This document shows positions 2,010 to 29,496 of a stretch of DNA of 37,260 nt, one piece after another. Made by a program: the position numbers and the translations under genes. Under the pieces are notes generated by a model that was not told where the DNA came from, did no database searches, and saw only the letters and a list, made by a program, of their open reading frames with translations. The DNA comes from Chiloscyllium plagiosum (lineage: Eukaryota): assembly GCF_004010195.1 (NCBI RefSeq), contig NC_057719.1:4212161-4249420 (forward strand), given 5' to 3'. The first letter of the stretch is position 1, and each line of letters starts with the position of its first letter.

Positions 2010-2482
2010 TTTCATGGGATATGAGTGCCACAGGGAAGGCCAATATTTCTTGCCTATCCCTAATTTTTCTTACACTGAGTTGTTTGCTAGAGTATTTCAG
2101 AAGGCAATTCAGAATCAAACACATTGCTGTTAATGTATAGTCATGATTTGGAGATGCCGGTGTTGGACTGGGGTGTACAAAGTTAAAATCACACAACACC
2201 AGGTTATAGTCCAACAGGTTTAATTGGGAGCACTAGCTTTCGGAGCGACACTCCTTCAAAGGAGCGTTGCTCCGAAAGCCAGTGTGCTTCCAATTAAACC
2301 TGTTATGTATAACCTGGTGTTGTGTGATTTTTAACAATGTGTAGTCATGTAAGTCAGACCATGCAATGATGGGACCTTTCCTTCCTTAAAGAACAATAAT
2401 GAATCAAAGGAGGTTTTTCTTCAAGTTGATAGTTCTGATGGTCACAATTAGTTTTCAATTCCAGGTTTCTATTGATTGAATT
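2010..2482 (-). mobile_element. old SINE (family 'B' here), interrupted by a Penelope hairpin
   Basis: Similar to the fuller copy at 22591-22924 (cacattgctgt...agtca..tgta.gtcagacc...tttccttcc.t.aag); tail resembles the 3' end of the LINE at 6880-8055. Confidence 0.7.
2146..2335. mobile_element. Penelope-like terminal fragment (family A) as a head-to-head inverted hairpin
   Basis: ~75-bp inverted arms (gttaaaatcacacaacaccaggttata... / ...tataacctggtgttgtgtgatttttaac) match the end of the Penelope at 3918-3991; 14-bp TSD with one mismatch (2132-2145, 2336-2349). Confidence 0.85.
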
Positions 2483-2741
2483 TGTGGTCTTATCCCTGGT
2501 CCCAGGGGAAGAGGAAATCCCACCTCGGCACCATTCCATCCAGCAAAGTCTCTCGGTCTCTGCCTACATAGCAGGTATCAATTTCCCCTTAGTTACCCTG
2601 CCCAAGAATGTCAGGAACCATATTATGATTATTTGCAGTAAACTGCCCAGCCTTCAGGACAACATTGACCACAACGCCGTACAACGCTGTCAGAGTGTCA
2701 ACATGGATACCACCATTACACGTGGGGATACATGGGGCCTT

Positions 2742-2822
2742 CATTCCTGATGTAGCATCGATTTTCCTACTCCTCAGATGCCACCTGGCTTGCTGTGCTT
2801 TTCCAGCACCACTCTGACTTTG
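2742..2822 (+). mobile_element. short Penelope-derived terminal unit (family B) with hammerhead stem II/GAAA deleted
   Basis: attcctgatg[deletion]catcgattttcctactcctcagatgc..cctggcttgctgtgcttttccagcaccactct aligns with 28414-28500. Confidence 0.75.
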
Positions 2823-3184
2823 ATACGTGGGGACACCACCAACCGTGTATGCAACAGGTACAGAGGTGACTTGGCCAACATTGTCAATCTTATATGCTGC
2901 AGGCAAGGATGTCCTGAGGCACGGTACATTGGCAAGAGCAAACAGACACTGTGACAATGGATTAATGGACACTGCTCAACAATCAACAGACAGGGGTGTT
3001 CCCACCCAGTCGGGAAGCACTTCAGCAGTCGGGGACATTTAGCCTCAGATCTTCGGGTGACCATCGTCCAAGGCAGACTCCAGGACAGGTAACAATACAG
3101 AGTGGCCGAGCAGGGGTTGATAGCCAAGTTTGGTACCCATGGGGGTGGCCTCAACTGGGACCTTGGGTTCATGTGACCCCACTA

Positions 3185-3482
3185 CACTATCTCTCTCACA
3201 CACACATTCTTACATATACACTCATGCAGACCCTCTCTAATCCACACGCTCTCTCTCATATGCACACGCATACACCCCTCCCCACACTCACACCAACGCA
3301 CACATCCTCTCATAGGCTTAGACTCCATTACACCCACACCCCCACACACACTTTACCAAGCTTTCACATGCATACACACACTCTCTCATGTGCACTCACA
3401 CTCACACGTACACACTTACATGTGCACACTCACTCTGTCTCTCTCTCTCTGTCTGTCATGCACACACACCCACACATATATA
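3185..3482. repeat. degenerate (CA)n/(CT)n low-complexity tract inside the Penelope 3' UTR
   Basis: Interrupted cacacaca/ctctctct runs; explains the His/Thr-rich ORF 2996-3496. Confidence 0.9.
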
Positions 3483-3907
3483 GGTCTATGGGGTGAATCT
3501 GTGTTTGTAGAATTGTATTTGCAGATATATTCTATTTTGCTCAAAAAATGCACAGTCTTCAGGCAGTGAATGCTGGCAGTCAATACATGGAATATTTTGT
3601 AAATTCCACTTTGGAAATAGAACCAATCTGACTCAAGATCGGGATACAGACAGACTCAGATCTCACATCTTCAATACAATGTCTGAGCTGAGATGTCACC
3701 TTTTGTTATAAAACCTTAAATTATCTCGAAAAGGTGACTTAAAATAAGTTCTGGGATTTACATATTAATGAACCAAAACCTGCACCCCATTCTAAAACAT
3801 GAAAGACTTAACAATAATCGCGGTTTGTTCAATATATCATTTCAATTGCATGACACTGTAATGCTTTTGCGATAAATTCAGTGTCTTATGATCTTAACCC
3901 CCACAAC

Positions 3908-3942
3908 CACCTGATGAAGGAGCTGCACTCCGAAAGCTAGTG
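3908..3942 (+). ncRNA. minimal type I hammerhead ribozyme motif (family A), core intact
   Basis: CAC-CUGAUGA-A-GGAG-cugca-CUCC-GAAA-GC-UA-GUG: stem I CAC/GUG, stem II GGAG/CUCC, palindromic stem III AGCU; predicted cut after A3939. Confidence 0.8.
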
Positions 3943-4529
3943 ATTCCAAATAAACCTGTTGGACTACAACCTGGTGTTGTGTGATTTTAACTTTGTCCAT
4001 CCCAGTCATTACTTGCTACTGTGAGTCTCTCAAAAATGGACATGTAATCCAAAACTGAGGATTCATCATTTCCAATTCAATTCTCCCTAATAGTCCTCTA
4101 ATCTCATCGCTATAAACCCATTCAAATGGCTAAACCCAGTAGATCCATTTGGAGAATCTCTGGTAGCAAACAGTAAGAAATCTAATCCTTTAGTGCAATC
4201 ACGTCGGTATTTGTAACAGTATTCCAGAGTTTGATAACATGCCTCCAAAGTTCCCTGTATTTGTTGACTTCAATATGCAGTTGATTTCAGTTATTTTGTT
4301 CCCAAACTGCTAATAGTTTCCTGAAAAGCCTTAGACATAAAAGTTAGAACCCTGATCAGATTGTAACTCAGTTGGTAGTCCATAACCAGTAATAAACTGT
4401 GTTAATTTTTCCACCAGCAGTAATCATTCATAAGGGAATAGCGTCTGGGAATCAAGTTGTCACATTCATAATTGTAAAGATATACCGATGTCTGCTTTTG
4501 ATTTCAGTAAGAATCACGAAGACTGACTC

Positions 4530-4700
4530 AGAATCTGTCTACCTCGGCCTTCAATATACTCAACAACCCACCCTCGACAGCCCTCTGGGGTAAAGAATTC
4601 AACAGCTTCACTCTCCTCTGTGGAAAGAAATTCCTCCTCATCTCTCTCTTAAATGTGAGACCTCTTACTCTCCAGTGATGCCCTCTGGTTCTAGATTCTC
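4530..4700 (-). mobile_element. old CR1 3'-region fragment
   Basis: aagaaattcctcctcatctc...atgccctctggttctaga is the complement of the CR1 SRTRGH...EMRRNFF segment. Confidence 0.75.
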
Positions 4701-4944
4701 GCTATTCCCATAATTATCACAATAATTAAAACTTTTAAAAAGTATTCATTGTTCCCCAGTTTATCTGGTTTTCAGCCGCAGAATGACAGAGAGCGTGCGC
4801 CAGGTTTCTGTACTGAACATAGTCCCTATTATTTACAAGTAATTAGACTCGAGGTACAGGTAAGTAGTTGTATCCTATCAGCATATAGTTCTACTAATAT
4901 TCTAAAATTGCAGAAAAGGCTTCAGGAGATTGGAATAATGCTAA

Positions 4945-5230
4945 TTAGGTTAGATTCCTTACAGTGTGGAAAAGGCCCTTTGGCCCAACCAGTCCACACT
5001 GACCCTCTGAAGAGCAACCCACCCAGACCCAGTTCCCTCTGACTAATGCACCTAACACTATGGGCAATTTAGCATGGCCAAGACTGTGGGAGGAAACCGG
5101 AGCACCCGGAGGAAACCCACGCAGACACGGGGAGAATGTGCAATCTCCACACAGCCTGAGGCTGGAATTGAACCTGGGACCCTGGTGCTGTGAGGCAGCA
5201 GTGCTAACCACTGAGCCATCGTGCTGACCC
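4945..5230 (-). mobile_element. HE1-type SINE, near full length
   Basis: tRNA head (A/B boxes) at 5160-5230, central CTCCCCGTGTCTGCGTGGGTTTCCTCCGGGTGCTCCGGTTTCCTCCCACAGTC domain, CR1-like tail. Confidence 0.92.
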
Positions 5231-5529
5231 TAATATAATACCATTGTTCAAAAAGAGTGGCAGGCAGACAGTAGGAAACTATAAAGCACTATCATTGAAA
5301 TTATTGAAATCCATTATTAGAGAAGGAATAACAGGACATTTGCAAAATCAAAATCTAATCCATCGGAGTCAGCATGGTTTATGAAGAGTAAATTGTGTTT
5401 GACTAGTCCGCTAGAATTATTTGAGGATATAACAAGCAAGGTGGATAATGAGGATCCTGTAGATACAGTACATCTGGACTTCTAGAAGCATTTGATAAAT
5501 GCTGCACTAAAGATTAAAACACAAGTAGG

Positions 5530-5735
5530 GGAGCAAGTTACTGCAGATGCTGGAATCCGTTCTGAACACAACAAATACTGGAGATCACAGTGGGTCAGGC
5601 AGCATCCATGAAGACAGAGCAAGCTAACAATTCGAGTCTAAATGACTCTTCATCAGAACTGACATGAAGTGGGGAGGAGGCAGCATTTATGTACAGTGGG
5701 CAGGGGGGGCGCTGAGTTCTGGGGGAGAAAGTAAG
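5530..5735 (-). mobile_element. Penelope-like terminal fragment (family D) with degenerate hammerhead (5622-5660)
   Basis: Complement reads CTGATGA-A-GAGTC-attta-GACTC-GAAT..., then ggatgctgcctgaccc.ctgtgatctcc as at 29406-29490. Confidence 0.75.
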
Positions 5736-6014
5736 TGGAGTCCGGAGTAAGTGATTGGATCACACGGGGTTGGGGTATTTTATTGGCTTGGCTGGAGGAC
5801 TGGCTAACCAACAGAAAGCAGAGAGTCAAGACAAATGGGGTGCCACAGTGTTTGATCCTCAACCCCCAACTATTTATAATCTGTATTAATGGGTACAGCG
5901 ACAGAAAGTATATGATAGTCAGATGATACTAAAATAGGTCAAAACATAAGTTCATAGTATCATAGAATCCCTATTGCAATGTTACAATGAAGAAATAAGA
6001 AATTTTCAAATAGA

Positions 6015-6181
6015 CAGTTAAAAATCACACAATACCAGGTTATAGGTCAACCACCTGATGAAGGAGCAGTGCTCCAAAAGCTAGTGCTTCCAAATAGACC
6101 TCTTGGGACTATAACCTGGTGTTGTGTGATTTTTAACTTTGTACACCCCAGTCCACCACCAACTCCTCCAAACCATGGCTA
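6015..6181 (+). mobile_element. short Penelope-like terminal unit (family A) with small 5' inversion
   Basis: ~30-bp inverted piece, then ccacCTGATGAaggagcagtgctccAAAAgctagtg (G12A); 8-bp TSD caaataga (6007-6014, 6182-6189). Confidence 0.85.
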
Positions 6182-6549
6182 CAAATAGATATGGATCGGA
6201 ATTTGGCAGATGAGGTTAAACATGGATAAGTGTAAAGCTATCGATTTGTGTCAGAGTAATGGAAAGGCAACTCATTATCTAAATGAACAAAAATTACAGA
6301 GTATGTCGGAGCAGAGGGATTGAAGCATGAATCACAAAAAGCTAATATACAGGAACAGCAGGTAGTTAGGAAGGCAAATGGAGTTTTGTCATTTATTGCA
6401 AAAAGAAGCAAGTATAAAAGTAGGGAAGTGTTGTGATTAGTGAGATTGCACCTGGAGTTCAGTTTTGGTCCTCTTACTTGAGATGGGGCTTAGTTACATT
6501 GGAGACACCCCAAACAGCCCTGATTTTAATTGCTGTATCACTGACACTA

Positions 6550-8110: not shown

Positions 8111-8205
8111 CTTCCTGAAGAAGGGCTTATGCCCGAAACGTCGATTCTCCTGTTCCTTTGATGCTGCCTGACCCGCTGCGCTATTCCAGCAACACATTTT
8201 TAAGC
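8111..8205 (+). mobile_element. 95-bp Penelope-derived terminal unit (family B)
   Basis: Near-identical to 18852-18939 and 26522-26619; 7-bp TSD aatgagc (8104-8110, 8206-8212). Confidence 0.88.
8113..8144 (+). ncRNA. minimal type I hammerhead ribozyme motif (family B), core intact
   Basis: UC-CUGAAGA-A-GGGC-uuau-GCCC-GAAA-CG-UC-GA: canonical GUC site (predicted cut after C8142), palindromic stem III ACGU, stem I only 2 bp. Confidence 0.8.
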
Positions 8206-8450: not shown

Positions 8451-8965
8451 ACTCCCAGGACAGGGACAGCACAAGATTAGATACAGAACAAATATCCTTC
8501 TAAATTGTCCTCATCCAACACTCCCAAGACAGGGACAGCATGGGGTTAGATACAGAATAAAGCTCCTTCTCTGCTGTCCTGATGAAACTCCCAGGACAGG
8601 GGCTGGACAAGGTTAGATACAGAGTAAATCTTTCTCTACACCATCCCCATGAAATACTCCCAGGACAGGTATAGCACAGGGTTATGTACAAACTAAAACT
8701 CCCTCTATATTTTTGCCATCAAGCAGTCCCAGGACAGGGACAGCACAGGGTTAGATACAGGGTAAAGCTCCCTTTACATTATCCCCATGAAACACGCCCA
8801 GGACAGGGGAAGCAAGGGATTAGATACAGGGTAAAGCTCCCTCTGCATTATCCCCATGAAACACACCCAGGACAGGGACAGCAAGGGGTTAGATATAGGA
8901 CAAAGCTCCCTCTACTCTAATAAACTAAAGTAAGGTTTTGTCTACACTGTCTCCATCAAACATTC
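8451..8965. repeat. 69-bp minisatellite, ~7.5 copies
   Basis: Unit actcccaggacagggacagcacagggttagatacagggtaaagctccctct..a.t.tccccat.aaac starts at 8451, 8520, 8587, 8656, 8725, 8794, 8863. Confidence 0.95.
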
Positions 8966-10856
8966 ACAGAATATATCTTCTGTTATTTCAGACCTGACAG
9001 AGTGCAACTATGGCACAGTTTAAGCTTTCTACACAGAGTTTCAGAATCACTTTTTATGTCAGACCTCTCCCTCCAAAGGCTCGTGATTTGGAAAACAGTG
9101 CGTCCACTGGGAGACCTGTCTCACCCCAAGTCCTTCCCTGCTTTCTGTTAGTGTCACATATTCGACGAGTTTAAAAAAAACCTTGATCTTGATAAGCTTC
9201 CTATTGCAGCAATACATACTCAAGAGCTAATCTTATTTAGGATTAATGCGTGAAAAGCAATCAGAGCCCCCGCAACAGAATCAGGAAACACTTTAATAAA
9301 TAGACTCTTTGTTCAGAAAGCTAGGAATCTGCAGAGGTCTTGATCTGGACTGAAACAAAATAATGAAATACACAAGTGATTGCATTTAATATTTAAAAGA
9401 AAACACAGGAAAATCTATATGATTTTTTTGACAGAAAGAATTCAAGATAGTTTTTTAGCTGCCTTTTCCGGACCAACTTAGCACAGCACAGTGAAGTATA
9501 ATAATGACTTATAACCTGTGTAGACACTGTGCAGACTCACTTCATGTCGTTTAACTCATTTATTCAACTCGCTGTAAAAACAAAGAAATGGCAAATAAAT
9601 ATGTGGAAGTTCATTGTTTCCCGAGAACCCGCTGCCAAGAAACTTTCCTATGACCTCTCAATGCAGTCCCAAGTTAGCACTAAAATACCCATCACTCAAC
9701 ACGGTTGCTCGCTTGTTCAGTTTGGCCCTGACCACACTACCCATCTTGGTTTTCTCTTCTCTCAGCTATTTTTGCCTTGCGCCTATTTCTACAAGAGAGA
9801 AAAAAAACAGAAGATTAAAAAAAAAACAGCTGTAGATATTTAAGTTTTGTACTGGAGGATTACTGTAAATTGCCATATGACAAATACAATGCACAGGGCA
9901 CTGGGCTGCTTATTAATGGCATGTATACAGCAGGCCGTTTTCAACGCTGGGCTCAGTCTGCACTCACTCAGACGTAATTAGAACCAGTTGGGCCCATGTG
10001 TTCCAGCGATCCATCCCATCATTCTCCAGAAATCCACTTTATCTCGGGCTGATATTAATTGATGGTGGATCATTTCTCTCCACTCTCTTTCCCTTAATGC
10101 TGTAATACCTCTTGTACAGTTACTTTATAATCCTTTCAGAACTTAAGTCGTATTAGACATAATTTTTTCAAAAGAGTTTTTAATATGTTTAGTAATTTTA
10201 ACGAACTGCTGCTGACACAGCCCACACTCTTCACTGTAACACTGATATACCCCACACCCCTTACTGTAACCCTCTGATATAGACCACACCCCTCACAGTA
10301 ACACTCTCTGACATACCCTACATGCTCTACTGTAACACACTGATATGCCCCACATCCCTTATTGTAACCCTCTGATATACACCACACCCCGCACTGTAAC
10401 ACTCTGATATACCACACACCCTGAACTGTAACCCTTTGATATAGACTGTACCTCTCACTGTAATACTGACTGATATACCCTACTGTAACACTCTGATATA
10501 CCTCTCATCCCTCACTATAAAACTGATATAACCCACACACCTCACTGTAACTCTCTGATATAGACCATATCCCTCAATGTAACACTCTCTGATATACCCC
10601 ACATACCCCATTATAACACTCTGATATACCTGACACCCTTCACTGTAACGCTGATGTAGCCCATATCCCTCACTATAACGCTACTCTATAGATCACACCC
10701 CTTACTGTAATATGAGAATATACCCCTCATCCCTCGCTGTAACACTCTGATATACTCCACACCCCTCAAGGAACATCCCGATATACCCCACTGCCCTCAC
10801 TTAACCCTCTTAACCCTCAGATATATTTGACATCTGTCAGTGTAAGCCTCTGATAT

Positions 10857-11179
10857 TAGTGAGTTTTGAAAAGATTTGTAGCTCAGGTTGAGGTTCTGGA
10901 TGTAGATTTGCTCACTGAGCTGGAAGGTTCATTTCCAGATGTTTCAGCATCATACTAGGTAACATCTTCAGTGGGCCTCAGGTGAAGCACTGCTGATAAA
11001 TCCTACTTTCTATTTATATGATTTGGTTTCTTTGGTTTGGTGATGTCATTTTCTGTGGCGATGTCATTTCCTGTGGTGAAGACACTTCCTGTTCCTTTTC
11101 TCAGAGGCTGGTAGATGGGGTCTAACTCGATGTGTTTGTTGATAGAGTTCCGGTTGAAATGCCATGCTTCTAGGAATGT
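10857..11179 (-). mobile_element. Penelope-like element 3' end (family C, Poseidon-like) with degenerate hammerhead (10935-10974)
   Basis: Complement encodes FLEAWHFNRNSINKHIELDPIYQPLR (endonuclease C-terminus); homologous to 16725-17040. Confidence 0.88.
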
Positions 11180-11540
11180 CTCTGATATACCCGCACCCGT
11201 CACTGTAATACTCTGATATACACCATACCACTTACTGTAACACTCTGAATATCCCACATCCACTCACTATAACATTCAGATATATCTCACATGCCCCACC
11301 ATAATACTCTGATATATCCCACTCCCCTTGCTATAATGCTGTGAAATATCCCACACCCCTCACTAAATATCCCACACCCACTCACTGTAACTCTCTGATA
11401 TACTCCACTCCCCTGAATGTAACACACAGATATACCCCACACCATTCACTGTAACAGTCTTTGATATACCCCACACATCATCCACTCCCCCTCCACTGTA
11501 ACACACAGATATACCCCTCACACCTCACTTTAACATTCTG

Positions 11541-12108
11541 ATAAGACCATAAGACCATCAGACATAGGAACAGAAATTAGGCCATTCAGCCCATCGAGTC
11601 TGCTCCACCATTCAATCTTGTTTTTCAATCCCATTCTCCCACTTTTCCCTGTAACCCTTGATCCCCTTGACAATCGAGAACCTATCAATCTCTGTCTCAA
11701 ATATACTCAATGACCTGGCCTCCACAGTCTTCTGTGGCAGTGAGTTCCACAGATTTCCCACTCTCTGGCTGAAGAAGTTTCTCCTTATCTCCATTCTAGA
11801 AGGTCTTCCCTTTACTCACAGGCTGTACCCTCGGGTCCCAGTCTCTCCTACCAACAGTTCAAGTTCTCTCAAAATAAATGCATTTGCCTTCCTAATTACC
11901 AACTCAACCTGCAATTTTACCTTGAGAGGATCCTGGTCAAGAACTCCCCAGTCTCTTTAGGGCACTTCAGATTTCTGAATTTTCTCCCCATTTAGAAAAT
12001 ACTCCATGCCTCTAGTCTTCCTCCCAAAGTGCATGACCTCACACTTTCCCATGTTGTACTTTATTTGCCACTTTTTTGCCCACTCTCCTAACCTGTCCAA
12101 ATCCTTCT
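11541..12108 (-). mobile_element. CR1 3' fragment with internal deletion
   Basis: (ataagacc)n tail; RRNFFSQRVGNLWNSLP joined near 11855 to LGEWAKKWQIKYNMGKCEVMHFG. Confidence 0.9.
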
Positions 12109-13351
12109 TATATATCTGAAACCCCTCACTAAAACTCTCTGATATAACCCACACCACCCTCCACTGTAACATTCAGATATACCTGACACCCCTTACTGTA
12201 ACATTCTGATATTTCCCACACTCCTCAATGTAACACTGATATTTCCCACACCCCTCAGTAACATTCTGATATTTCCCACCCTCCACTGTAACATTTGGAT
12301 ATACCTGACACCCCTTACTGTAACACTCTGATATTTCCCACACCCCTCACAATAACATTCTGATATTTCCCATCCTCCACTGTAACATTCGGATATACCT
12401 GACACCCCTCACTGTAACATACTGATATTTCCCACATCCCTCACTGTAACATTCTGATATTTCCACACCCCTCAGTAACATTCTGATATTTCCCATCCTC
12501 CACTGTAACATTCGGATATACCTGACACCCCTCACTGTAACATACTGATATTTCCCACATCCCTCACTGCAACACTGATATGTCCCATACCCCTCACTGT
12601 AACACTGATATGTCCCGTACCCCTCACTGTAACATGCTCTTATTGATGGTAAACATACTGTGTATTTTTTGCCAGGCAAGTGACTGTTTATAGGTGTTGA
12701 TTAATTGGCTGCTTTTTCCTGGTGTTGAGCTGCTTGAGGATTAGAGCAAATGGATCATATCCTGACTCATGCCAGGAAATGTGGACTCCCGGGTTTGTGT
12801 TAGCTGTTGCCTCATTGTCTAATTACTCAATAGTCTGTTGTTGTTCTGTTTGTCTCATTCTGTCTCTCCTTGTTTAATAAAAATCAGTCAAATGAACCTC
12901 CAATTCTGCTTAAGATCTTTCTATAGACTCTGTAGTGCCGTCATTTACAACTGAATTTATTTGAATCATGTTCTCAAGTGCTGGTTCAGGAAGGTCTTGT
13001 CGTTCAGGCAGTTGGCTCTTATGTTTCTCTGGTTGATCGACCCGGTCTGCTCCTTCTTGCCTGACTGGCTTAAAACTTCTTGTTCAAGCTCTGGGATGGG
13101 GGTGGGAGTAAGGGGAGCAGGGTTCCCCCAAAAGGATTCTGCCCTCTAGGTCAAACAGGAACCATGGCATGTGGCTGTGGGAGAAGGCCCTCGGACTGTG
13201 GCGGTCCTGACTTTGGCCAGGCAGGGCCATTAAAGATGGCGTACAGATTGACAAAGCTGGAGGGCCACAGGAAGGAGTATCCTTCAAATGTAATAGAGGG
13301 TACTGCCATCTTCTGGTGCCCTCCTTCTCAACCCGTCCAGAGTTTTAGATA

Positions 13352-16724: not shown

Positions 16725-17196
16725 TTTGAGAAGATTTGAAGCTCAGGTTGAGATTCTGGATGTAGGTTTGCTCGCTGAGCTGAAAGGTTCATTTCCAGAC
16801 GTTTCATCACCCTACTAGGTAACATCTTCAGTGGGTCTCCAAGCAAAGCACTGTTCATGAATCCTGCTTTCTTTTTATATGTTTGGGTTTCTTTGGGTTG
16901 GTGATGTCATTTCCCATGGTGATGTCATTTCCTGCGCTGATGTAATTTCCTGTTCTTTTCTCAGGGGGTGGTAAATGGGGTCTGACTCGATGTGTTTGTT
17001 GATAGAGTTCTGGTTGGAATACCAAGCTTCTAGGAATTCTTGCGCATGTCTCTGTTTGGCTTGTCCGAGGATGGATGTGTTGTCCAGTCGAAGTAGTGTC
17101 CTTCCTTATCTGTATGTAAGGAAACTAGTGAGAGAGGGTCATGTCATTTTGTGGCTAGTTCGTGTTCATGTATCCTAATTTTCTGCCTGTTTGTCC
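16725..17196 (-). mobile_element. Penelope-like element 3' end (family C)
   Basis: Complement encodes GQTGRK..RIHEH..LSLVSLHTDKEGH..FLEAWYSNQNSINKH; 8-bp TSD atagctgt (16717-16724, 17197-17204). Confidence 0.9.
16795..16834 (-). ncRNA. minimal type I hammerhead ribozyme motif (family C), near-intact
   Basis: CCA-CUGAAGA-U-GUUACC-uaguag-GGUGAU-GAAA-CG-UC-UGG; stem I CCA/UGG; GUC site; closing pair of stem II decayed to G-U. Confidence 0.75.
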
Positions 17197-18051
17197 ATAG
17201 CTGTGTGTGAAAGCCTGTTTTTGAGATGTTGATTGAAGGGCACATGGGAGAATTCCTCTGTTTTTAAAAATTGTGCCATTGGGTCCTTTACATTCATTTG
17301 GAGCTTTGATTTAATGCCTCATTCAATGGATGGCACCTGTGACATTGCAGCACTCTCTCAGTGGTGCACTGTGTTTGCACAACTCCCTGAATCCACAACC
17401 TCCTGACTCAGAGAGTTTAACGAACAACATTGAAAATGTGAACCAACAGGCAAAGCTTGTAGCATTCCCCCTGAGACCCAACCTCTCTGTGCCAGCCTGC
17501 AGAAATAGGAGCCATGAAATTTCAGTGCTGTGTCTCACCCCAGTTCAGATTTCCCTGCACCATTTCAATTGATTACAACTGGTATCTAAAGAAACTGGAG
17601 CATGATACAGAAACTATCTGCAGTAATAATCATTAGCACTAGAGAGCAGGAACAGCTTTACAATTAGAGGCAGTTCTGAAATAGTTACGTATTATCACCA
17701 TTGTTATATACCACAGTATACACTGCCTATCTAGGGTTCTAATTTACAGTCTGAATTAATTTGGAGTAATAATCGTTCTTGAGAATTGTGGAATTATACA
17801 GCACAGGCCATTTACTCCAACATCAGCTGAATGACCTCATTAGGTTTACCCTTCAGGTGTCTCTGCAAGTTCAGCATATCCCTAGTTGTTCGTGATGGGA
17901 AGATGATGGTGTTGCCAAAGCTATTTCAGAGGCACTGGGGACGTGGGAAACACAATGGCAATGTCACTGGATTAGCAATCCAGACATTTACAGCCACAGC
18001 CTGTGCATTCTCTGCAGCAGCTGCTGTAATTTCATCTCAACAGAGGTGAAA

Positions 18052-18678: not shown

Positions 18679-18851
18679 AGTTAGACTCAGTCTTGGTGAC
18701 CATAAAATCAACAATAATTGTAGAACCCAGAGAGACCTAGGGGTTCAGGTACATAGTTCATTGGGATTTGTGTCACTGGTTGGTATTGAACGCATTGGCA
18801 TGCTTGCCTTCATTGCTCAGACCATTGAGTATAGGAGTTGGTATAGGAGTT

Positions 18852-18939
18852 CCTGAAGAAGGGCTTCTGCCCGAAACATCGATTCTCCTGTTCCTTGGAT
18901 GCTGCCTGACCTGCTGCGCTTTTCCAGCAACACATTTTC
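18852..18939 (+). mobile_element. ~90-bp Penelope-derived terminal unit (family B) with hammerhead motif
   Basis: CTGAAGA-A-GGGC-ttct-GCCC-GAAA-CA-TC; 13-bp TSD agtataggagttg (18828-18840, 18940-18952). Confidence 0.88.
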
Positions 18940-19397
18940 AGTATAGGAGTTGATATGTCATGTTGAGGTTGTACAGGACATTGATGAGGCCACTTTCAGA
19001 GTACAGTGTCCATTTCTGGTTGCCCAGTTATAAGAGGGACATTATTAAATTGGAGATGCTTCAGAAAAGATGTACAAGTATGTTACCAAAACTGAAGGTT
19101 TTGAGTAATAAGGAGAGGCTGGATAGGCTGGGACATCTTCCCCTGGAGCATTGAAGGTTGAGGGGTGACTTTATAAAGTTTTATAAAATCATGAGGGGCA
19201 TCGATAAGGTGAATAGCAAGCGTCCTTTCCCTAGAAGTGGGTATTTCAAAACCAAAGGCTTAATTTTAATGTGAGGGGAAAAAGACGGGCCTGAGGGACA
19301 ATTCTTTCAGACAGAGAATGGTTTGTGTGTGGAATAAAATGCCAGAGAAAGTGGTAGATGCTGATACAGTTACAACAATCCAACATTAATTTGGTTA

Positions 19398-19960
19398 AAA
19401 ATCACACAACACCAGGTTATAGCCCAACAGGTTTATTTGGAAGCACTAACTTTCGGAGTGCTGCTCCTTCATCAAGTAGCTTTGAAAGAGGATCATAAGA
19501 CACAGAATTTAGAGCAAAAATTACAGTGTCATGCAATTGAAATGATATATTGAACAAACCTGGATTGCTGTTAAATCCTTCATCTTTTAGAATGGGTTGC
19601 AGGTTTTGGTTCATTAATAGATAAATCCTGTGACTTCTATCAAGTCACATTCTTGAGATAAGTCAAGGAGGAGTTGTTGACAGTGAGGAAGCATGTGGCA
19701 GGTTACATCCTTCATCTTTTAGAATGGGTTGCAGGTTTTGGTTCATTAATAGATAAATCCTGTGACTTCTATCAAGTCACATTCTTGAGATAACTTATGT
19801 TACGTTTGTTCAATATATCATTTCAATTGCATGACACTGTAATTTTGTGTTCTAAATTCTGTCTTATGATCCTGCTCTACAGTTAACTGATGAAGGAGCA
19901 GCGCTCCAAAAGCTAGTATTTCCAAATAAACGTGTTGGAGTATAACCAGCACCTCCACAT
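19398..19960. mobile_element. Penelope-like 3' UTR/terminal fragment (family A) in inverted two-arm configuration
   Basis: Left arm antisense and right arm sense to 3720-3991; two mutated hammerheads (19444-19478 minus, 19887-19918 plus); 17-bp TSD caacattaatttggtta (19381-19397, 19961-19977). Confidence 0.9.
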
Positions 19961-20743: not shown

Positions 20744-21009
20744 AACATAGAACATAGAACATAGAACATAGAACAATACAGCACAGAACAGGCCCTTCGG
20801 CCCACGATGTTGTGCCGAACTTCTAACCTAGATTAAGTACCCATCCATGTACCTATCCAAATGCCGCTTAAAGGTCACCAATGATTCTGACTCCACCACT
20901 CCCACAGGCAGCGCATTCCATGCCCCCACCACTCTCTGGGTGAAAACGTTGCCCCTTAGATCTTTTTTATATCTTTCCCCTCTCACCCTAAACCTATGCT
21001 CTCTAGTTC
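20744..21009 (-). mobile_element. young CR1 3' end running into the gap
   Basis: (aacatag)4 tail; RGNVFTQRVVGAWNALP..FKRHLDRYM. Confidence 0.92.
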
Positions 21010-21279
21010 NNNNNNNNNNNNNNNNNNNNNNNNNNNNNNNNNNNNNNNNNNNNNNNNNNNNNNNNNNNNNNNNNNNNNNNNNNNNNNNNNNNNNNNNNNN
21101 NNNNNNNNNNNNNNNNNNNNNNNNNNNNNNNNNNNNNNNNNNNNNNNNNNNNNNNNNNNNNNNNNNNNNNNNNNNNNNNNNNNNNNNNNNNNNNNNNNNN
21201 NNNNNNNNNNNNNNNNNNNNNNNNNNNNNNNNNNNNNNNNNNNNNNNNNNNNNNNNNNNNNNNNNNNNNNNNNNNNNNN
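21010..21279. other. assembly gap (270 N)
   Basis: Run of n. Confidence 1.
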
Positions 21280-21481
21280 CATCCTGCACCTCCGCCCTCA
21301 GACCCAACCCCTCCAACCGCAACAAGGACAGAACGCCCCTGGTGCTCACCTTCCACCCTACCAACCTTCGCATAAACCAAATCATCCGCCGACATTTCTG
21401 CCACCTCCAAACAGACCCCACCACCAGGGATATATTTCCCTCCCCACCCCTCTCCGCCTTCTGCAAAGACCGTTCCCTCCG
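21280..21481 (+). mobile_element. Penelope-like element, RT-endonuclease linker fragment
   Basis: NKDRTPLVLTFHPTNLRINQIIRRHFCHLQTDPTTRDIFPSPPLSAF resembles the Neptune-type PLE linker (PLVLTYHP...IFP.PP..AFR). Confidence 0.82.
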
Positions 21482-22590
21482 GTATTGGAGGCAGTCCAGA
21501 GAAGGTCCACCCACTGACACCCGGGGATGGAGGGATTGTCTTATGAGGAGAGGTTGAGTAGTTTGGGCCAATGTTTGTTGGAACTTAGAAGAATGAGTGG
21601 TGACATTGTTGAAACATGCAAGATTCTTAGGGAACTTGACAGGGTCAATGGGGAAAGTGTTTCCCCTTGTGGGAGAGTCTAGGGCCAGAGGGCATCATCC
21701 CAGAATAAAGGGTTGCACAATTAAGACAGGGATGAGGAGAATTTCGTCTCTCAGAGGGGAGTGAATCTGTGGAATTCTTTGCTACAGGTGGCTGTGGAAG
21801 CTGGGTCATGAAGTATATTCAAGGCTGAGAGAGACAGATTTTTAATCAGGAAGGGAATCAAGGGTTAGGGGTAAAAGGCAGGAAGTGGAGTTGAAGATCA
21901 TCAGATCAGCCATGATCTAATTCAAGAGTAGAGCGGAGTCAATGGGCTGAATGGCTTACTTCTGTTGCCATGTCCTATGGTCTTAAACTCCTCCTAGTCA
22001 GTAATGTCAATGCTGCCGTGCACTAAGGAGAACTTCAGATGGCTTTGTAGCACCATCCCCTGGAATCTTGGATATTTGTGAGTTTGGGTAAACAGGACCT
22101 GAAAGAGGTGGGGATGGGGGGGGAGGGATGGTTTCCAGCCATCCAGGGTTGATTGAGTTTTGCCTGAAAGCTAGTGCACCTCGCTTCAAGAAGGGCAGAA
22201 AATTTTGCTCGACAGATCTCCTATAGAATCCAGCAAAGATTGCTGGTGAATGTGATGTCGCTGATACACAGCCCAAGTACCACTGCAGAAAAGGAGCATG
22301 ACATTGGCTCTATCTGCTCGGAGTTTTATTGACTTGTGGAGGTCCTTCCTGCCCATAGTTTGTACAAGGCTGATCCGATCTTAGACCCCATCATCGATGG
22401 TGACCTTTAAGAGCAGTGGCTGCCAAAGTCTGGGAAAATGTTCCGCAGCCTCTCCTTTAATATTTATGGAATATTGGAATGACAGGTATGGATTGGTAGA
22501 TGAGTCATTCACACTAACTTTTTTATTTCCAAATTTAATTGATTGAATTTAAATTTCCGAACTTTCTTAGTGGGATTTGAACTCCTGCCT

Positions 22591-22924: not shown

Positions 22925-23349
22925 TTTGTGTCCTGAATCATTATTGCTGTAACATAATCATGATGTTATCATTCTGTTCCCTCTCTCACCATCACCCTGC
23001 CAGTGTTGCCCTTACAAATATTTATTTGGTTCCATTTCAGAGGTTATTAAGTCATGTACTTCCTAATCGTAATCACTCCCTGGTAAAAGATGTTCTTCCT
23101 CATCTCCCATCTGGCTGATTAGGTCTGAACTTTGTTTCCTCAAGTTACTGACTCTTCTGAATTGCATTACAGAATAGGTGGAGGCCATTCAGCCTGCTGT
23201 GCCAGTAGTGGCTCTATTATCTACTGCCAATCTCCTGCCCTTTTCCCCATAGCCCCATACCTAGGCATTCTGCACCCCAAAGCAGCTTCAGCTTACTTGT
23301 TCTGGTAGAACACTTCATAATCTCTGCTGAACTTTTGCCAGCTGAATAG

Positions 23350-23427
23350 CTCACTCGAAATGTTGTTTCTGCTTTCTTCCTACAGGTACAGCCAGGCCTG
23401 CTGAGTTTCTCCAGCAATTTCTGATTC
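23350..23427 (+). mobile_element. Penelope-like terminal fragment (family D-related), hammerhead 5' half missing
   Basis: ctcgaaatgtt...gccaggcctgctgagtttctccagcaatttctg. Confidence 0.55.
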
Positions 23428-25465: not shown

Positions 25466-26489
25466 AGAGTCATAGAGTCATAGAGATGTACAGCATGGAA
25501 ACAAACCCTTCAGCCCAACTCGTCCATCCCAACCAGATATCCCAACCCAATCTAGTCCCACCTGCCAGCACCCAGCCCATATCTCTCCAAACCCTTCCTA
25601 TTCATATACCCATCCAGATGCCTTTTAAATGTTGCAATTGTACCAGCCTCCACCACATCCTCTGGTAGCTCATTCCATACACGTAGCACCCTCTGAGTGA
25701 AAAAGTTGCCCCTTAGGTCACTTTTATATCTTTTCCCTCTCACCCTAAACCTATGCTCTCTAGTTCTGGACTCCACTACCACAGGGAAAAGACTTTGTCT
25801 ATTTATCCTATCCATGCCCCTCATGATTTTATAGACCTCTATAAGGTCACCCTTCAGCCTCCGACACTCCAGGGAAAACAACCCCAGCCTATTCAGCCTC
25901 TCCCTATAGATCAAATCCTCCAACCCTAGCAACATCCTTGTAAACCTTTTCTGAACCCTTTCAAGTTTCATAACATCTTTCCGATAGGAAGGAGACCAGA
26001 ATTGCATGCAATATTCCAACCAATGATCTAACCAATGTCCTGTACAGCCGCAACATGACCTCCCAACTCCTGTACTCAATACTCTGACCAATAAAGGAAA
26101 GCATATCAATCACCTTCTTCACTATCCTATCTACTTTCAAGGAGTTATGAACCTGCAAGCCAAGATCTCTTTATTTGGCAACATTCCCTAGGACCTTACC
26201 GATAAGTGTATAAGTCCTGCTAAGATTTGCTTTTCCAAAAGCAGCACCTCACATTTATCTGAATTAAACTCCATCTGCCACTTCTCAGCCCATTGGCCCA
26301 TCTGATCAAGATCCTGTTGTAATCTGAGGTAATCTTCTTCACTGTCCACTACACCTCCAATTTTGGTGTCATCTGCAAACTTACTAACTATACTTCTTAT
26401 GCTCACATCCAAATCATTTATGTAAATGGTGAAAAGTAGCGGACCCAGCACCGATCCTTATGGCACTCCATTGGTCACAGGCCTCCAGT
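25466..26489 (-). mobile_element. young CR1, 5'-truncated (~1 kb) including RT core
   Basis: LGPLLFTIYINDLD..SKFADDTKIGGVVDSEE (26188-26451) through FKRHLDGYMN (25552-26109); (agagtcat)n tail. Confidence 0.95.
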
Positions 26490-26521
26490 GTTATGCTTTA
26501 ATTCACTGCTCTCAGTCTGCC

Positions 26522-26619
26522 GATTCCTGAAGAAGGGCTTATGCCCGAAACATCGATTCTCCTGCTCCTTGGATGCTGCCTGACCTGCTGCGCTTTTCCA
26601 GCAACACATTTTCAGCTCT
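26522..26619 (+). mobile_element. ~100-bp Penelope-derived terminal unit (family B) with hammerhead motif
   Basis: CTGAAGA(26527)-A-GGGC-ttat-GCCC-GAAA-CA-TC; near-identical to 8111-8205. Confidence 0.88.
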
Positions 26620-26671
26620 AACCCCAATCAATCCATACTGGTACATTGGCCCTCAAACGTAATTTTATTCA

Positions 26672-26866
26672 CAAGGATTAGTGCTGGGTCCACTGCTTTT
26701 CATCATTTATATAAATGGTTTGGATGTGAACATAGGAGGTATGGTTAGTAAGTTTGCAGATGACACCAAAATGGGAGGTGTGATGGACTGCGAAAAAGGT
26801 TACTTTAGAATACAATGGGATCTTGATCAGATGGGCCAATGGGCCGAGGAGTGGTAGATGGAGTTA
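26672..26866 (+). mobile_element. CR1 RT-core fragment
   Basis: QGLVLGPLLFIIYINGLD..SKFADDTK..QMGQWAEEW*ME. Confidence 0.9.
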
Positions 26867-27180
26867 ACAATCCCTTTCACAAATCCAGATTGACTCAGCT
26901 CAGTCATGCCATTCTTTTCCAAATGTTCTTTATTGTTTCTAATTCACATTCTTTATATTAGCAGATACAATTTTACAGACCACTGACGTCAAACTTACAG
27001 TGTATGTTTTTCCATTCTTCATCACCCGCCTTTCTTAAATAATGGGGTTACACTTCATACTTCCCAGGAACCTTTCCAGAAAGCAGTAGAATTATGAATT
27101 ACAACCACATTCCATGATCATCCTTTAACGTTCTGGGATGTGCCTCATCTGGTCCAAGGAATTTATCAACCTTCAATCCA
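26867..27180 (-). mobile_element. old CR1 ORF2 fragment
   Basis: Complement gives DKFLGPDEAHPRTLK and VTPLFKKGG. Confidence 0.7.
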
Positions 27181-27189
27181 AGACTTTTT

Positions 27190-28350
27190 ATAGAAGCTTA
27201 CAAACAAGAAACAGAAGGAGGCCATTCAGCCCTTCTAGCCTGCTGTGCTATTCAACAAGACCATGGCTGATCTGATTTTCACCTCAACTCTATGTTCCTG
27301 CATATCCTGCTTAATGGTAAGGTCCTGGGGAGTGTTGCTGAACAAAGAGACCTTGGAGTGCAGGTTCATAGCTCCTTGAAAGTAGAGTCGCAGGTAGATA
27401 GGATAGTGAAGAAGGCGTTTGGTATGTTTTCCTTTATTGGTCAGCACATTGAGTACAGGAGTTGGGAGGTCATGTTGGGACTGTACAGGACATTGGTGAG
27501 GCCACTTTTGGAATATTGCATGCAATTCTGGTCTCCTTCCTATCGGAAAGATGTTGTGAAAATGTTGGAGAATTTGACCTACGGGGAGAGGCTGAACAGG
27601 CTGGGGTTGTTTTCCCTGGAGGATCGAAGGCTGAGGGGTGACATTCTTGAGGTTTATAAAATCATAACGGGCATGGATAGGGTATATAGACAAAGTCTTT
27701 TCCCTGTGGTGGGGGAGTCCAGAACTAGACAGCATAGGTTTAGGGTGAGAGGTGAAATATTTAAAAGGGACCTAAGGGGCAACCTTTTCACACAGAAGGT
27801 GGTGCGCATGTGGAATGAGCTGCCAGAGGAAGTGATGGAGGCTGGTACAATTACAGCATTTAAAAGGCATCTGGATGGGTATATGAATAGGAAGGGTTTA
27901 CAGGGAAATGGGCCAAGTGCTGGCAAATGGTACTAGGTTAGATTATGATATCTGTTCAGCATGGACAAGTTGGACCGAAGTGTCTGTTTCCGTGCTGTGC
28001 ATCTCTATGACTCTCTGACTCTTGGCCATCAATAACCTATCAAGTCTGTCTCAAAATTATTTAAAGATTCTGCATCCACTTTTGAGGAAGGGAATTATAA
28101 TGACCCTCAATCCTCTGACAGAAACACATGTTTCCTCATCTCTGTCTTAAATGGGTAACCCTTATTTATAAACTATCATCCCCTAGTTTTAGATGCTCCC
28201 AGAAGGGGAAACATCATTTCCACATCAGTCGGGTCAAGTCCATTCAGGATCTTATATGTTTCAATAAAGTCACCACTAACTCTTCCCAACTCCAGAGGAT
28301 ACTGGCCCAGCCTGTCTAGTCTTTCTGCAGAAGGTAATCTACTTATTCTA
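27190..28350 (-). mobile_element. older CR1 3' fragment split by the younger CR1 at 27308-28021
   Basis: Tail aggaggccattcagccc at 27216-27240; body resumes 28022 (tttcctcatctctgtcttaaatggg). Confidence 0.75.
27308..28021 (+). mobile_element. young CR1, 5'-truncated (~710 bp)
   Basis: ORF 27292-27936 is CR1 ORF2 C-terminus (LNGKVLGSVAEQRDLGVQV..FKRHLDGYMN) with a short internal deletion; tail ctctatgactctctgact. Confidence 0.95.
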
Positions 28351-28413
28351 AATCCTCATTACAACAGTAACTGCAAAATAAGACCTTCTAGTGACTCAGC
28401 AAGGTATCTCACC

Positions 28414-28544
28414 TTCCTGATGAAGGGCTTTTGCACCAAACATCAATTTTCCTGCTCATCGGATGCTACCTGACCTGCTGTGCTTTTACAGCACCACTCT
28501 AATCTAGACTCTGATTTCCAGCATCTGCAGTCTCACTTTTGCCA
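28414..28544 (+). mobile_element. 131-bp Penelope-derived terminal unit (family B), hammerhead broken
   Basis: CTGATGA-A-GGGC-tttt-GCAC-CAAA; 13-bp TSD aaggtatctcacc (28401-28413, 28545-28557). Confidence 0.88.
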
Positions 28545-28639
28545 AAGGTATCTCACCCACTGCCTACTCAAGTGTAATAAAAATGGACTTGCTAGCAGCC
28601 ATCCCACATGTCATTAATGAATAAAGAAATAGCAGCATT

Positions 28640-29040
28640 ATTTGTGGCAGCAAGTTCCACTGTCTAACCACTTTCTGGGAAAAGAAATGTGCACTTGAAT
28701 TCATTGGAAATTACAACTGAATTTATTCGAGGCTGCTTTATATTTATGGCCCCTAGTTCTGTACTTTCTGCACAAGTGGAAACATCTTTTCTACATCTGC
28801 CTTGTCAAACCCCTTCATAAATTAAAGACCTCTTTCAAACCACTTCTTTTCCAGTGAAAATAGTCCCAACCTGTTCAGTCTTTTGTAATAGTTAGAATTT
28901 CTCAGTTCTGGTATCAGTTTGGAAAATCTGTTTTGCACTTTCTCCAGTGTTTGTGTAATATGGAGACCGGCATTTGCACAGTTTTCTCAATTGAAGAATA
29001 ACCACTATTCAATGTAAATTTCACATAATGTAATGGTTTT
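28640..29040 (-). mobile_element. ancient CR1 fragment
   Basis: ggcagcaagttccac..ctaaccact; tttatggcccctagttctg; ttttccagtgaaaatagtcccaacctgttcagtct (complement of RLNRLGLFSLE). Confidence 0.72.
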
Positions 29041-29049
29041 GATTTCTTG

Positions 29050-29305
29050 TTCACATGCATATAAATGCAAAAATGCTCACATTTACAAGCATGCATGCAT
29101 AGACAAACATTTGCATAAATATGTATATGGACACACGCACTTGAATCTCACACATAAACATACAAACACAAAACTATGCACATGTACGCAAACGCATATG
29201 AACTTACATCTACATAAACGCACGTGTTCTCACACAGACAGGCAGATGAGCATTCATGTGTATATATGAACCCACAAATATGTACACACAGATGGCACAC
29301 ACATC
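29050..29305. repeat. degenerate (CA)n/(CATA)n low-complexity tract
   Basis: Alternating purine-pyrimidine, CA-rich; gives the His/Thr-rich ORF 29033-29269. Confidence 0.8.
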
Positions 29306-29319
29306 TATCTGAAAATGTA

Positions 29320-29496
29320 AGAGTAAATTACTGCAGATGCTGGAATCTATGCTGCGAGCAACAAGTGCTGGAGGTCACAGAGGGTCAGGCAAGCTAACAG
29401 CAGCTCTGATGAAGAGTCAGCGTGACTCGAAACATTAGCTTGTTCCCTCTCCACGGATGCTGCCTGACCCGCTGTGATCTCCTGCACTTTTTGTCG
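29320..29496. mobile_element. Penelope-like terminal unit (family D), inverted two-arm form, hammerhead motif at 29402-29440 (+)
   Basis: AGCT-CTGATGA-A-GAGTCA-gcg-TGACTC-GAAA-CA-TT-AGCT; left arm antisense; 13-bp TSD atctgaaaatgta (29307-29319, 29497-29509). Confidence 0.88.

What the first reader, a model, noticed from the sequence alone, without database searches (positions are those of the whole stretch)
2146..29496. Dense set of minimal hammerhead-ribozyme motifs from four Penelope-type families with covarying stems
Seen: CUGANGA-N-[stem II]-GAAA-NN-UH motifs at 3908(+), 5622(-), 6052(+), 8113(+), 10935(-), 16795(-), 18851(+), 19444(-), 19887(+), 26525(+), 28415(+) and 29402(+), with partial ones at 2231-2282, 2747 and 23355. 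Stem II differs between families yet pairs (GGAG/CUCC, GGGC/GCCC, GUUACC/GGUGAU, GAGUCA/UGACUC), as does stem I (CAC/GUG, UC/GA, CCA/UGG, AGCU/AGCU). Stem III is a loopless palindrome (AGCU or ACGU). Established: Penelope-like elements carry minimal type I hammerheads in their pseudo-LTRs, proposed to work as dimers via palindromic stem III. Inference: about one motif per 3 kb here would imply a very large genomic ribozyme load, and the copies at 3908, 8113 and 16795 could still cleave a host transcript.
Basis: partly seen in the sequence, partly recalled or inferred. Interest (0 to 1): 0.72.

Follow-up and report, generated by a model that had tools for sequence, protein, structure and literature searches.

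The report
Penelope retrotransposon stubs carrying minimal hammerheads
These are real but mostly decayed copies of a known tiny self-cutting-RNA motif carried by Penelope-type jumping genes, with about 160,000 intact-core copies in this genome; many copies start just in front of the motif, often after an extra G, which likely records where the element's capped RNA begins rather than a working load of ribozymes cutting host RNAs.

Summary
The motifs are real and far above chance. Only 6 of the 12 named keep core and stem II, and only 3 (C3 at 3911, 8115, 16831) also keep the palindromic stem III. They are minimal hammerheads in the terminal repeats (pLTRs) of Penelope-like elements, a pairing published in 2014. 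GIY-YIG remnants lie upstream of three window copies. The genome has 162,818 intact-core matches against 97 in the control. Remnants occur at 1 per 3.9 kb, so the window is ordinary. Across families, 155 of 317 copies begin at the hammerhead's 5' edge, about 30 nt before the cut site, often after an extra G (64 of 100 versus 16 of 100). Half of the short copies are head-to-head pairs. Best reading: abortive reverse transcription of uncut RNA, running off its capped start. Host-transcript cleavage is unsupported: the G12 CpG decays at the neutral CpG rate, no host exon was recognised, and published monomers do not cut unaided. This scan has noted the same system before, here and in other genomes.

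The parts
2138..2335 (.). Family A head-to-head pair: two 5'-truncated pLTR stubs (2258-2138 on -, 2259-2335 on +) joined inside the hammerhead core; predicted long hairpin
   Evidence: fold -118 kcal/mol, 80% paired; source of the MIR845_1 Rfam hit far below gathering score
2756..2815 (+). Family B stub; stem II and GAAA deleted
2830..3180 (+). Degenerate GIY-YIG endonuclease 3' end of a family A Penelope-like element
   Evidence: translation (YIG motif, stops and frameshifts); 80-85% identical copies genome-wide
3908..3942 (+). Family A minimal hammerhead, intact: stem I CAC/GUG, stem II GGAG/CUCC, AGCU palindrome, predicted cut after A3939
   Evidence: the aligned copy runs 3739-4007
5530..5758 (-). 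Family D pLTR end; hammerhead C3 at 5656 with GAAA changed to GAAU
6019..6182 (+). Family A stub starting 7 nt before C3 (6055), G12 to A by CpG decay, preceded by a short inverted copy
8112..8200 (+). Family B1 stub with intact hammerhead (C3 8115, predicted cut after C8142, stem I only 2 bp)
   Evidence: 28,912 exact copies of its 31-mer in G000
10897..11182 (-). Family C 3' end with GIY-YIG C-terminal remnant; hammerhead C3 at 10971, stem II disrupted, ACAU
16757..17260 (-). Family C 3' end: GIY-YIG remnant, 3' UTR and intact hammerhead (C3 16831, predicted cut after 16798)
18850..18941 (+). Family B1 stub, palindrome decayed to ACAU
19395..19593 (-). Family A copy, C3 to U and AGUU
19860..19947 (+). 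Family A copy (C3 19887), G12 to A, stem I 5' arm changed; inverted relative to the 19444 copy
   Evidence: (I23)
21276..21488 (+). Remnant of the region after the RT core of a family B2 element, no hammerhead attached
23340..23426 (+). Family E remnant, hammerhead largely lost
26522..26619 (+). Family B1 stub starting at A(-4) with a non-templated G in front; palindrome decayed to ACAU
28414..28532 (+). Family B stub with tail, GAAA box lost
29402..29494 (+). Family D stub starting at A(-4); stem I AGCU/AGCU, stem II 6 bp, ACAU; preceded by a partial inverted copy

Best explanation
The motifs are mostly decayed genomic copies of the minimal hammerhead in the terminal repeat of at least five Penelope-like retrotransposon families, and most are short stubs likely made when reverse transcription started about 90-125 nt inside uncut element RNA and ran off its likely capped 5' end at the hammerhead's first stem.

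Shown:
- The hammerhead lies after the GIY-YIG ORF and 3' UTR, and again about 165 nt before the next ORF's ATG.
- Copy 5' ends pile up at C3-10..+4.
- An extra G often precedes A(-4) in family B1.
- Half of the short copies are head-to-head pairs.
- Inserted copies lose G12 and the palindrome by CpG decay.

Inferred:
- The pile-up is the transcription start and the G is the copied cap.
- Paired stubs come from nicking and extending both DNA strands, followed by joining.
- Selection acts on the source elements, not on the copies.
- The ribozyme would cut only as a dimer or with the element's protein. Cutting 30 nt after the cap would then uncap the element's own mRNA, as a feedback or processing step.
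- Solo copies are predicted to be inert toward host RNA.
For: Linkage to Penelope-like ORFs:
- GIY-YIG remnants upstream of 3911, 10971 and 16831.
- L069 has a C-x4-C-x2-C linker, a GIY-YIG domain (PF01541, 25.6 bits against a cut-off of 22.6), a 3' UTR and then the family B hammerhead.
- In 13 of 25 loci holding the ORF's N-terminus, pLTR sequence runs straight into the ATG. Six of these 13 reach upstream of the cut site; 1 of 13 goes beyond C3-17.

5' ends:
- 155 of 317 copies of families A, B, D and E start at C3-10..+4, against 15 in the 39 nt just upstream.
- Loose ends pile at C3-4 in public contigs (385 and 78 records) and RNA reads (215), with heterogeneous flanks (agreement 0.33-0.46).
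- Extra G: 64 of the first 100 listed of 7,327 non-templated B1 copies have G before A(-4), against 16 of 100 one base further in (hand count; Fisher p 4e-12).
- TATA-like motifs lie 35-48 nt before C3 in 5 of 10 reference copies, with weaker T-rich matches in 3 more.

3' ends and pairing: 3' ends fall in two groups, near +80-93 and +113-128. 129 of 260 short copies have an inverted partner.

Decay: the G12 CpG differs in 40 of 191 cells against 72 of 303 for 3' CpGs (p 0.51).

Literature: internal RT starts, both-strand extension and use of uncut RNA in an anole element (PMC11167929); an extra 5' G from the cap in full-length L1 insertions (PMC11702581).
Against: - No direct transcription start was seen: the one informative RNA run showed no place where many molecules begin or end.
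- In the smaller local sample only a minority of copies starting at -4 had the G (4 of 16 family B rows listed, one of the 16 with an N flank).
- Starts spread over about 15 nt, with modes at -4 and -3.
- Local alignment ends and microhomology joining of inverted arms blur the boundaries.
- Family C does not show the pile-up (14 of 20 extend beyond -11).
- Non-CpG core positions remain somewhat more conserved than expected after context correction (36 against 54, P 0.006). This fits selection on sources but does not exclude some selection on copies.
- 17 of 317 copies start at cut+1..+3, so some templates may have been cut.
- D. virilis Penelope starts transcription upstream of an intron with a TATA-less promoter (PMC2377424), so the layout is not universal.
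Confidence: 0.72

Rival explanations
1. The elements and decay are as above, but the 5' pile-up is not a transcription start. The reverse transcriptase stalls or switches template at the folded or protein-bound hammerhead, and inverted arms are then joined by microhomology.
For: Half of the short copies are inverted pairs whose junctions scatter through the core and stem II, often with microhomology. No RNA 5' pile-up was seen.
Against: A stall at a structure would be expected on its 3' side, not past its last 5' strand (inference). The sharp drop upstream of -10 and the G excess at exactly -5 are not predicted by stalling.
Confidence: 0.13
2. Intact solo copies such as 3911, 8115 and 16831 act as ribozymes in host transcripts, so the genome carries a functional cleavage load.
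For: About 1.3-1.8 x 10^5 copies keep all core features. There is a residual excess of core conservation. 3911 and 6055 are same-family, same-strand copies 2.1 kb apart, and 6055 keeps the substrate arm, so a one-sided dimer is conceivable. 3911 keeps stem II (P 0.79) and stem I (P 0.44) in context.
Against: Monomers were inactive in vitro and dimers weak (PMC4209133); the anole motif cut only with its protein (PMC11167929). G12 decays at the CpG rate. RNA reads cover the cut-site bin equally in both orientations (349 against 350) with no end pile-up (a poly(A) single-cell library, so a weak test). No host exon was recognised in the window. None of four short-copy co-folds gave the double-hammerhead as the minimum-energy structure.
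Confidence: 0.07
3. The short hammerhead units are a separate non-autonomous element (retrozyme, SINE or MITE-like) that spreads by its own cut-and-circularise cycle.
For: Very high copy number and near-fixed length. Animal retrozymes are proposed to derive from pLTRs (bioRxiv 10.64898/2026.07.22.740005).
Against: No hammerhead-bearing tandem array among the 29 TRF rows of the window. Units begin about 30 nt upstream of the cut rather than at it. Junctions of inverted pairs differ from copy to copy. The stubs match the ends of ORF-bearing copies.
Confidence: 0.07

Closest known systems
Minimal hammerheads (min-HHR) in pLTRs of metazoan Penelope-like elements (Cervera and De la Pena 2014, PMC4209133; parts 1-2 of 4 read)
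   Same: Core boxes, an extra base between positions 9 and 10.1, G10.1-C11.1, palindromic 15.2-16.2 without loop 3, several covarying families per genome, mostly solo copies, some opposite-strand pairs.
   Different: Count: 162,818 pattern matches (46 per Mb) against about 4,000 in coelacanth and 9,000 in X. tropicalis, though the descriptors differ. Families A and B have short stem II (4-5 bp) and stem I of only 2-4 bp. The parts read do not describe a 5' pile-up or an extra G.
Poseidon element PAc of Anolis carolinensis (Frangieh et al. 2024, PMC11167929; parts 1-2 of 4 read)
   Same: Hammerhead at the pLTR-ORF junction, two internal RT start sites giving an optional tail, both strands extended, uncut RNA as template.
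   Different: In PAc the ORF starts at stem II; in family B2 here the ATG is about 165 nt after C3. Protein-assisted cleavage was shown for PAc and is untested here.
Complex PLE insertions with pLTR, adjacent inverted 5'-truncated copy and 30-40 bp tail (Craig et al. 2021, PMC8557442; passages read)
   Same: 5' truncation, inverted partner, optional tail; C-x4-C-x2-C linker of Neptune type in family B.
   Different: Here the commonest product is a roughly 95-130 bp stub or a roughly 200 bp palindrome centred on the hammerhead's 5' edge.
Non-LTR retrozymes of animals (PMC7229834, passages; bioRxiv 10.64898/2026.07.22.740005, parts 1-2 of 5 and passages)
   Same: Type I hammerhead, very high copy number (126,247 in axolotl), link to PLEs.
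   Different: Retrozymes are tandem 170-400 nt units, with canonical loop-loop hammerheads in the axolotl case, and give circular RNAs. These copies are dispersed or inverted and minimal. Density here is about ten times the axolotl's (126,247 in 28.21 Gb).
Extra 5' G of full-length LINE-1 insertions (PMC11702581; one passage read)
   Same: A non-templated G at the 5' junction, read as the copied mRNA cap.
   Different: Here it marks short abortive copies of a different retroelement class.

Membership tests
min-HHR of metazoan PLE pLTRs | CUGANGA and GAAA-NN-UH core around a paired stem II | tested here: met
   6 of 12 named sites; 89 hits in 1.353 Mb of random DNA; 0 in the reversed control of the first 1.16 Mb
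min-HHR of metazoan PLE pLTRs | Extra nucleotide between 9 and 10.1; G10.1-C11.1 pair | tested here: met
   extra A or U in 6 of 6 window hits, G-C in 5 of 6 and G-U in 16831; G-C in 8 of 10 subfamily majorities
min-HHR of metazoan PLE pLTRs | Palindromic 15.2-16.2 with no loop 3 | tested here: met
   7 of 10 subfamily majorities have CG or GC; the other 3 show CA or TG, the CpG-decay products; only 3 of 12 named copies keep it
min-HHR of metazoan PLE pLTRs | Families with compensatory stem changes | tested here: met
   66 of 70 cells paired, shuffle maximum 64; first stem I pair C-G, A-U or U-A
min-HHR of metazoan PLE pLTRs | Located in the pLTR beside an RT/GIY-YIG ORF | tested here: met
   A and C in the window; B in L069 and L237-L261; D only by a by-eye translation of upstream DNA; E not examined
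min-HHR of metazoan PLE pLTRs | Self-cleavage as a dimer or with protein | not testable with these tools
   needs a bench assay; RNA reads gave no end pile-up
Endonuclease-positive Penelope-like element | C-terminal GIY-YIG endonuclease | tested here: met
   PF01541 above cut-off in L069:5242-5610; the family C fragment L066 gave no GIY-YIG hit in the same call
Endonuclease-positive Penelope-like element | Telomerase-related RT in the same ORF | tested here: inconclusive
   L074:4120-5301 has a YIDD motif and continues into the linker but no Pfam hit; no tree was built
Endonuclease-positive Penelope-like element | pLTR, 5' truncation, inverted 5' copy, optional tail | tested here: met
Neptune clade | CX2-5CxxC linker between RT and endonuclease | tested here: met
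   family B only: C-x4-C-x2-C in L069, L070 and L074. Clade labels for A and D (Neptune-like) and C (Poseidon-like) are recalled resemblance.
Non-LTR retrozyme | Two or more consecutive tandem units, each with a hammerhead | tested here: not met
   none among the 29 TRF rows of the window; not tested genome-wide
Non-LTR retrozyme | Abundant circular RNA | not testable with these tools
   no suitable library was laid
Rfam hammerhead families | Match to a curated covariance model | tested here: not met
   5 matches at E<=1, none a hammerhead, all below gathering score

The most novel reading that the evidence does not exclude
The Penelope hammerhead is the capped leader of the element's RNA: its first stem strand doubles as the transcription initiator, and protein-assisted cutting 30 nt downstream uncaps the mRNA as a feedback switch. 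The genome records both states, with hundreds of thousands of cap run-off stubs and a smaller class starting at the cut. It also carries on the order of 10^5 long fold-back hairpins and the densest hammerhead load among the genomes in the papers read.
Probability: 0.3. Interest if true: 0.7.

Novelty: new member of a known kind. Interest (0 to 1): 0.4.

Why it matters
The role of the hammerhead in Penelope-like elements is an open question (PMC8557442 calls it unclear; PMC11167929 found it dispensable for insertion in vitro). This genome holds roughly 0.9 million remnants (345 in 1.353 Mb). That is enough to read RNA start, RT start and possible cut sites from DNA alone, and to test directly by intronic strand bias whether solo hammerheads cost the host anything. 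The motif class itself is known, and the window is an ordinary sample of the genome.

Tried and rejected
- Chance motifs: rejected.
- Rfam: no hammerhead family found; the miRNA-like hits at 2218-2299 and 6019-6135 are the inverted repeat pairs.
- MAFFT across 17 copies misaligned stem II between families, so it was not used for pair counts and no covariance model was built.
- Folding z-scores of five single motifs were not significant (-1.21 to 0.64), as expected for minimal motifs.
- Pfam gave nothing on 8 of 10 window ORFs; the two RVT_1 hits are LINE-type remnants unrelated to the motifs (the CR1 label is recalled).
- A genome search with PF01541 returned one unhelpful match.
- No intact full-length element was recovered: most long loci contain N runs.
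- Raw excess core conservation (4.6% against 8.2%) shrank after base matching (59 against 90, all in A) and trinucleotide matching (36 against 54). It was not taken as proof of selection on copies.
- The cluster at cut+1..+3 was inspected by eye for the first 120 regions (output partly cut). Several cases are CpG-decayed cores or microhomology junctions of inverted pairs, so it is left open.
- No RNA holder was listed on record. Run X20 laid no reads, so it is no test.
- Splice-acceptor explanation of the boundary: no shared upstream exon in the flanks seen, and no AG at the boundary in families A and B.
- Lunse et al. 2017 could not be read; it is known here only from its title and a citing review (PMC6765202, passages).
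- Searches that found no paper on a transcription start at the PLE hammerhead, a cap-derived G in PLE copies, or a hammerhead census in cartilaginous fish. Subscription papers and the supplements of PMC4209133, PMC11167929 and the 2026 preprint were not seen and may bear on this.
Full report
Setting. The window is G000:C10:4212161-4249420 of a 3.56-Gb assembly. At least 56% of it matches other sampled loci, so it is largely repeats. Exons of a Dicer-family gene lie upstream on the + strand (E 2.6e-57 to Dicer chains), with the stop about 24.7 kb before base 1. I recognised no host exon in the window; the ORF list was partly cut from view. That the animal is a shark-type fish rests on earlier notes of this scan and on recalled repeat types, not on a test of mine.

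Observation. A descriptor for the minimal hammerhead finds 6 hits in the window, against a mean of 0.04 and a maximum of 1 in 300 dinucleotide shuffles. Three more have the stem III palindrome decayed to ACAU, and six have a broken core or stem II. Rfam has no hammerhead match. Covariation was tested without circularity: copies were gathered by homology 3' of the cut site, and majority sequences of 10 subfamilies pair in 66 of 70 stem cells, against a shuffle mean of 41 and a maximum of 64 in 20,000. The subfamilies are related, so the figure is descriptive.

Identity. Upstream of 3911 lies a degenerate GIY-YIG end (2830-3180) and a CA-rich UTR. Upstream of 16831 and 10971 lie GIY-YIG C-terminal remnants of another type. 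For family B, locus L069 shows the post-RT region, a C-x4-C-x2-C linker, a GIY-YIG domain (PF01541 above cut-off), a stop, about 210 nt of UTR and the hammerhead. Family D loci carry a similar endonuclease end by my by-eye translation. Family E was not traced to an ORF. In 13 of 25 loci holding the N-terminus of the family B2 ORF, pLTR sequence runs directly into an in-frame ATG about 165 nt after C3. The hammerhead therefore sits both after one ORF and before the next, as in published pLTRs.

Load. One 31-mer has 28,912 exact copies. A pattern with both core boxes, G10.1, C11.1 and an SS-U-H end has 162,818 matches against 97 for the reversed pattern; it does not demand stem pairing. In 140 evenly chosen 10-kb regions (1.353 Mb without N) there are 89 descriptor hits, 67 with the palindrome and 50 also with stem I of 2 bp or more. 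These scale to about 234,000, 176,000 and 131,000 genome-wide. There are 345 homologous remnants, 1 per 3.9 kb; the window has 15 against 9.4 expected (P about 0.06). Published counts are about 4,000 in coelacanth and 9,000 in X. tropicalis (PMC4209133, parts 1-2 read) and 126,247 canonical motifs in axolotl (PMC7229834, passages). The descriptors differ, so the comparison is rough. Expansion of Penelope-like elements in whale shark introns is already reported (bioRxiv 10.1101/443036, passages).

Anatomy of the copies. Of 317 non-reference copies of families A, B, D and E, 155 begin at C3-10..+4, 15 in the 39 nt upstream of that, 68 in all extend beyond -11, and 59 begin at +5..+24. Family C differs: 14 of 20 are long. 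Flanks of truncated copies are unrelated DNA or an inverted partner, and 129 of 260 short copies have such a partner. The window pair 2138-2335 folds as one hairpin. Public contigs and reads laid on L069 show a jump in depth and a pile of heterogeneous loose ends at C3-4; related subfamilies may add to that pile. 3' ends fall near +80-93 and +113-128, matching two internal RT starts and the optional tail. I had noted the start-site idea before consulting earlier findings; the extra-G and TATA tests came from them. Among family B1 copies with a non-templated base before A(-4), 64 of the first 100 listed (of 7,327) have G, against 16 of 100 (of 7,692) one base further in (hand counts; Fisher p 4e-12). 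The window copy at 26523 is one of them. In the smaller mixed-age local list only 4 of 16 family B copies starting at -4 had G. TATA-like motifs lie 35-48 nt before C3 in 5 of 10 reference copies, with weaker matches in 3 and none in 2. That the TCATT/TCAGTT edge resembles an initiator is recalled. An extra G from the cap is described for full-length L1 insertions (PMC11702581, one passage).

Is it cut? Most templates were copied through the cut site, including 6 of 13 ORF-linked pLTRs, so uncut RNA is used, as for the anole element (PMC11167929, parts 1-2 read). Seventeen of 317 copies start at cut+1..+3, but CpG decay and microhomology explain several of those inspected, so this stays open. 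In one poly(A) single-cell run (1,649 reads laid from about 2% of the run) no place showed many molecule ends, and the cut-site bin was covered equally in both orientations; the second run laid nothing. This is a weak test.

Selection. The catalytic G12 sits in a CpG and differs in 40 of 191 cells, like 3' CpGs (72 of 303; p 0.51, first 120 regions, 7 subfamilies). Non-CpG core positions differ less than the 3' region. After trinucleotide matching, with columns under 80% majority dropped, the count is 36 against 54 expected (P 0.006), mostly from families E, B1 and A1. I read this as selection among source elements, but cannot exclude some on copies.

Host cleavage. In a double hammerhead, stem I forms between partners (established for dimeric type I motifs; applied here by inference). 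The three intact window copies come from three families and so cannot serve each other. 8115 is predicted to misfold in context (stem II 0.03), while 3911 keeps stem II (0.79). The only plausible local pair is 3911 with 6055, 2.1 kb apart on one strand, where 6055 lacks G12 but keeps the substrate arm. Published monomers did not cut and dimers cut weakly (PMC4209133); the anole motif needed its protein (PMC11167929). A review states the dimer view (PMC6765202, passages). Whether this locus is transcribed was not tested.

Verdict. A real, correctly named instance of a known motif class in a new host: five families, mostly fossil. The additions are the very high count and the DNA record of a likely capped start at the hammerhead, which my searches did not find in print. 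This scan's unreviewed notes have reported it several times, twice in this genome among the 8 shown of 702.

Noticed in passing
L076-L077 (G000:C10:4172161-4192160), about 25-36 kb before window base 1, + strand: Last coding exons of a Dicer-family gene (RNase IIIb and dsRBD); the window lies downstream of its stop codon.
   Followed up: partly
window 35379-37259: Long G-rich minisatellite of 33-34 nt units (47 copies plus a further array) giving spurious ORFs up to 446 aa.
   Followed up: no
window 10221-10810, 11180-11476, 12105-12635: 32-nt minisatellite interrupted by the family C Penelope end at 10897-11182.
   Followed up: no
window 8451-8915: 69-nt tandem array, 6.8 copies.
   Followed up: no
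window 25466-28022: Two LINE RT/3' end remnants in inverted orientation (459-nt arms, 86%) enclosing a second inverted pair (26267-26865) and the 26525 stub.
   Followed up: no
genome-wide sample, e.g. window 2138-2335, L038, L190, L230: About 65 head-to-head stub pairs in 1.35 Mb, on the order of 10^5 genome-wide; if transcribed they would form hairpins of up to about 100 bp, a possible double-stranded RNA load.
   Followed up: partly
L256 (G000:C5:106879721-106883182): Several short tandem and inverted copies of the tail-to-ATG segment in front of a family B2 ORF, suggesting repeated template jumps.
   Followed up: no
L141:2639-2675, L242:3034-3070, L049:1805-1848, L183/L197/L042: Further hammerhead families absent from the window, with compensatory stem I arms (GUC/GAC, GCA/UGC).
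   Followed up: no
L069:5242-5600: RNA reads over the endonuclease region are skewed about 3:1 to one orientation, against 1:1 over the hammerhead, hinting at directional transcription of some long copies; library orientation unknown.
   Followed up: no
window 21008-21277 region: A 270-N run directly before a Penelope ORF remnant; many long Penelope loci in this assembly are broken by N runs.
   Followed up: no
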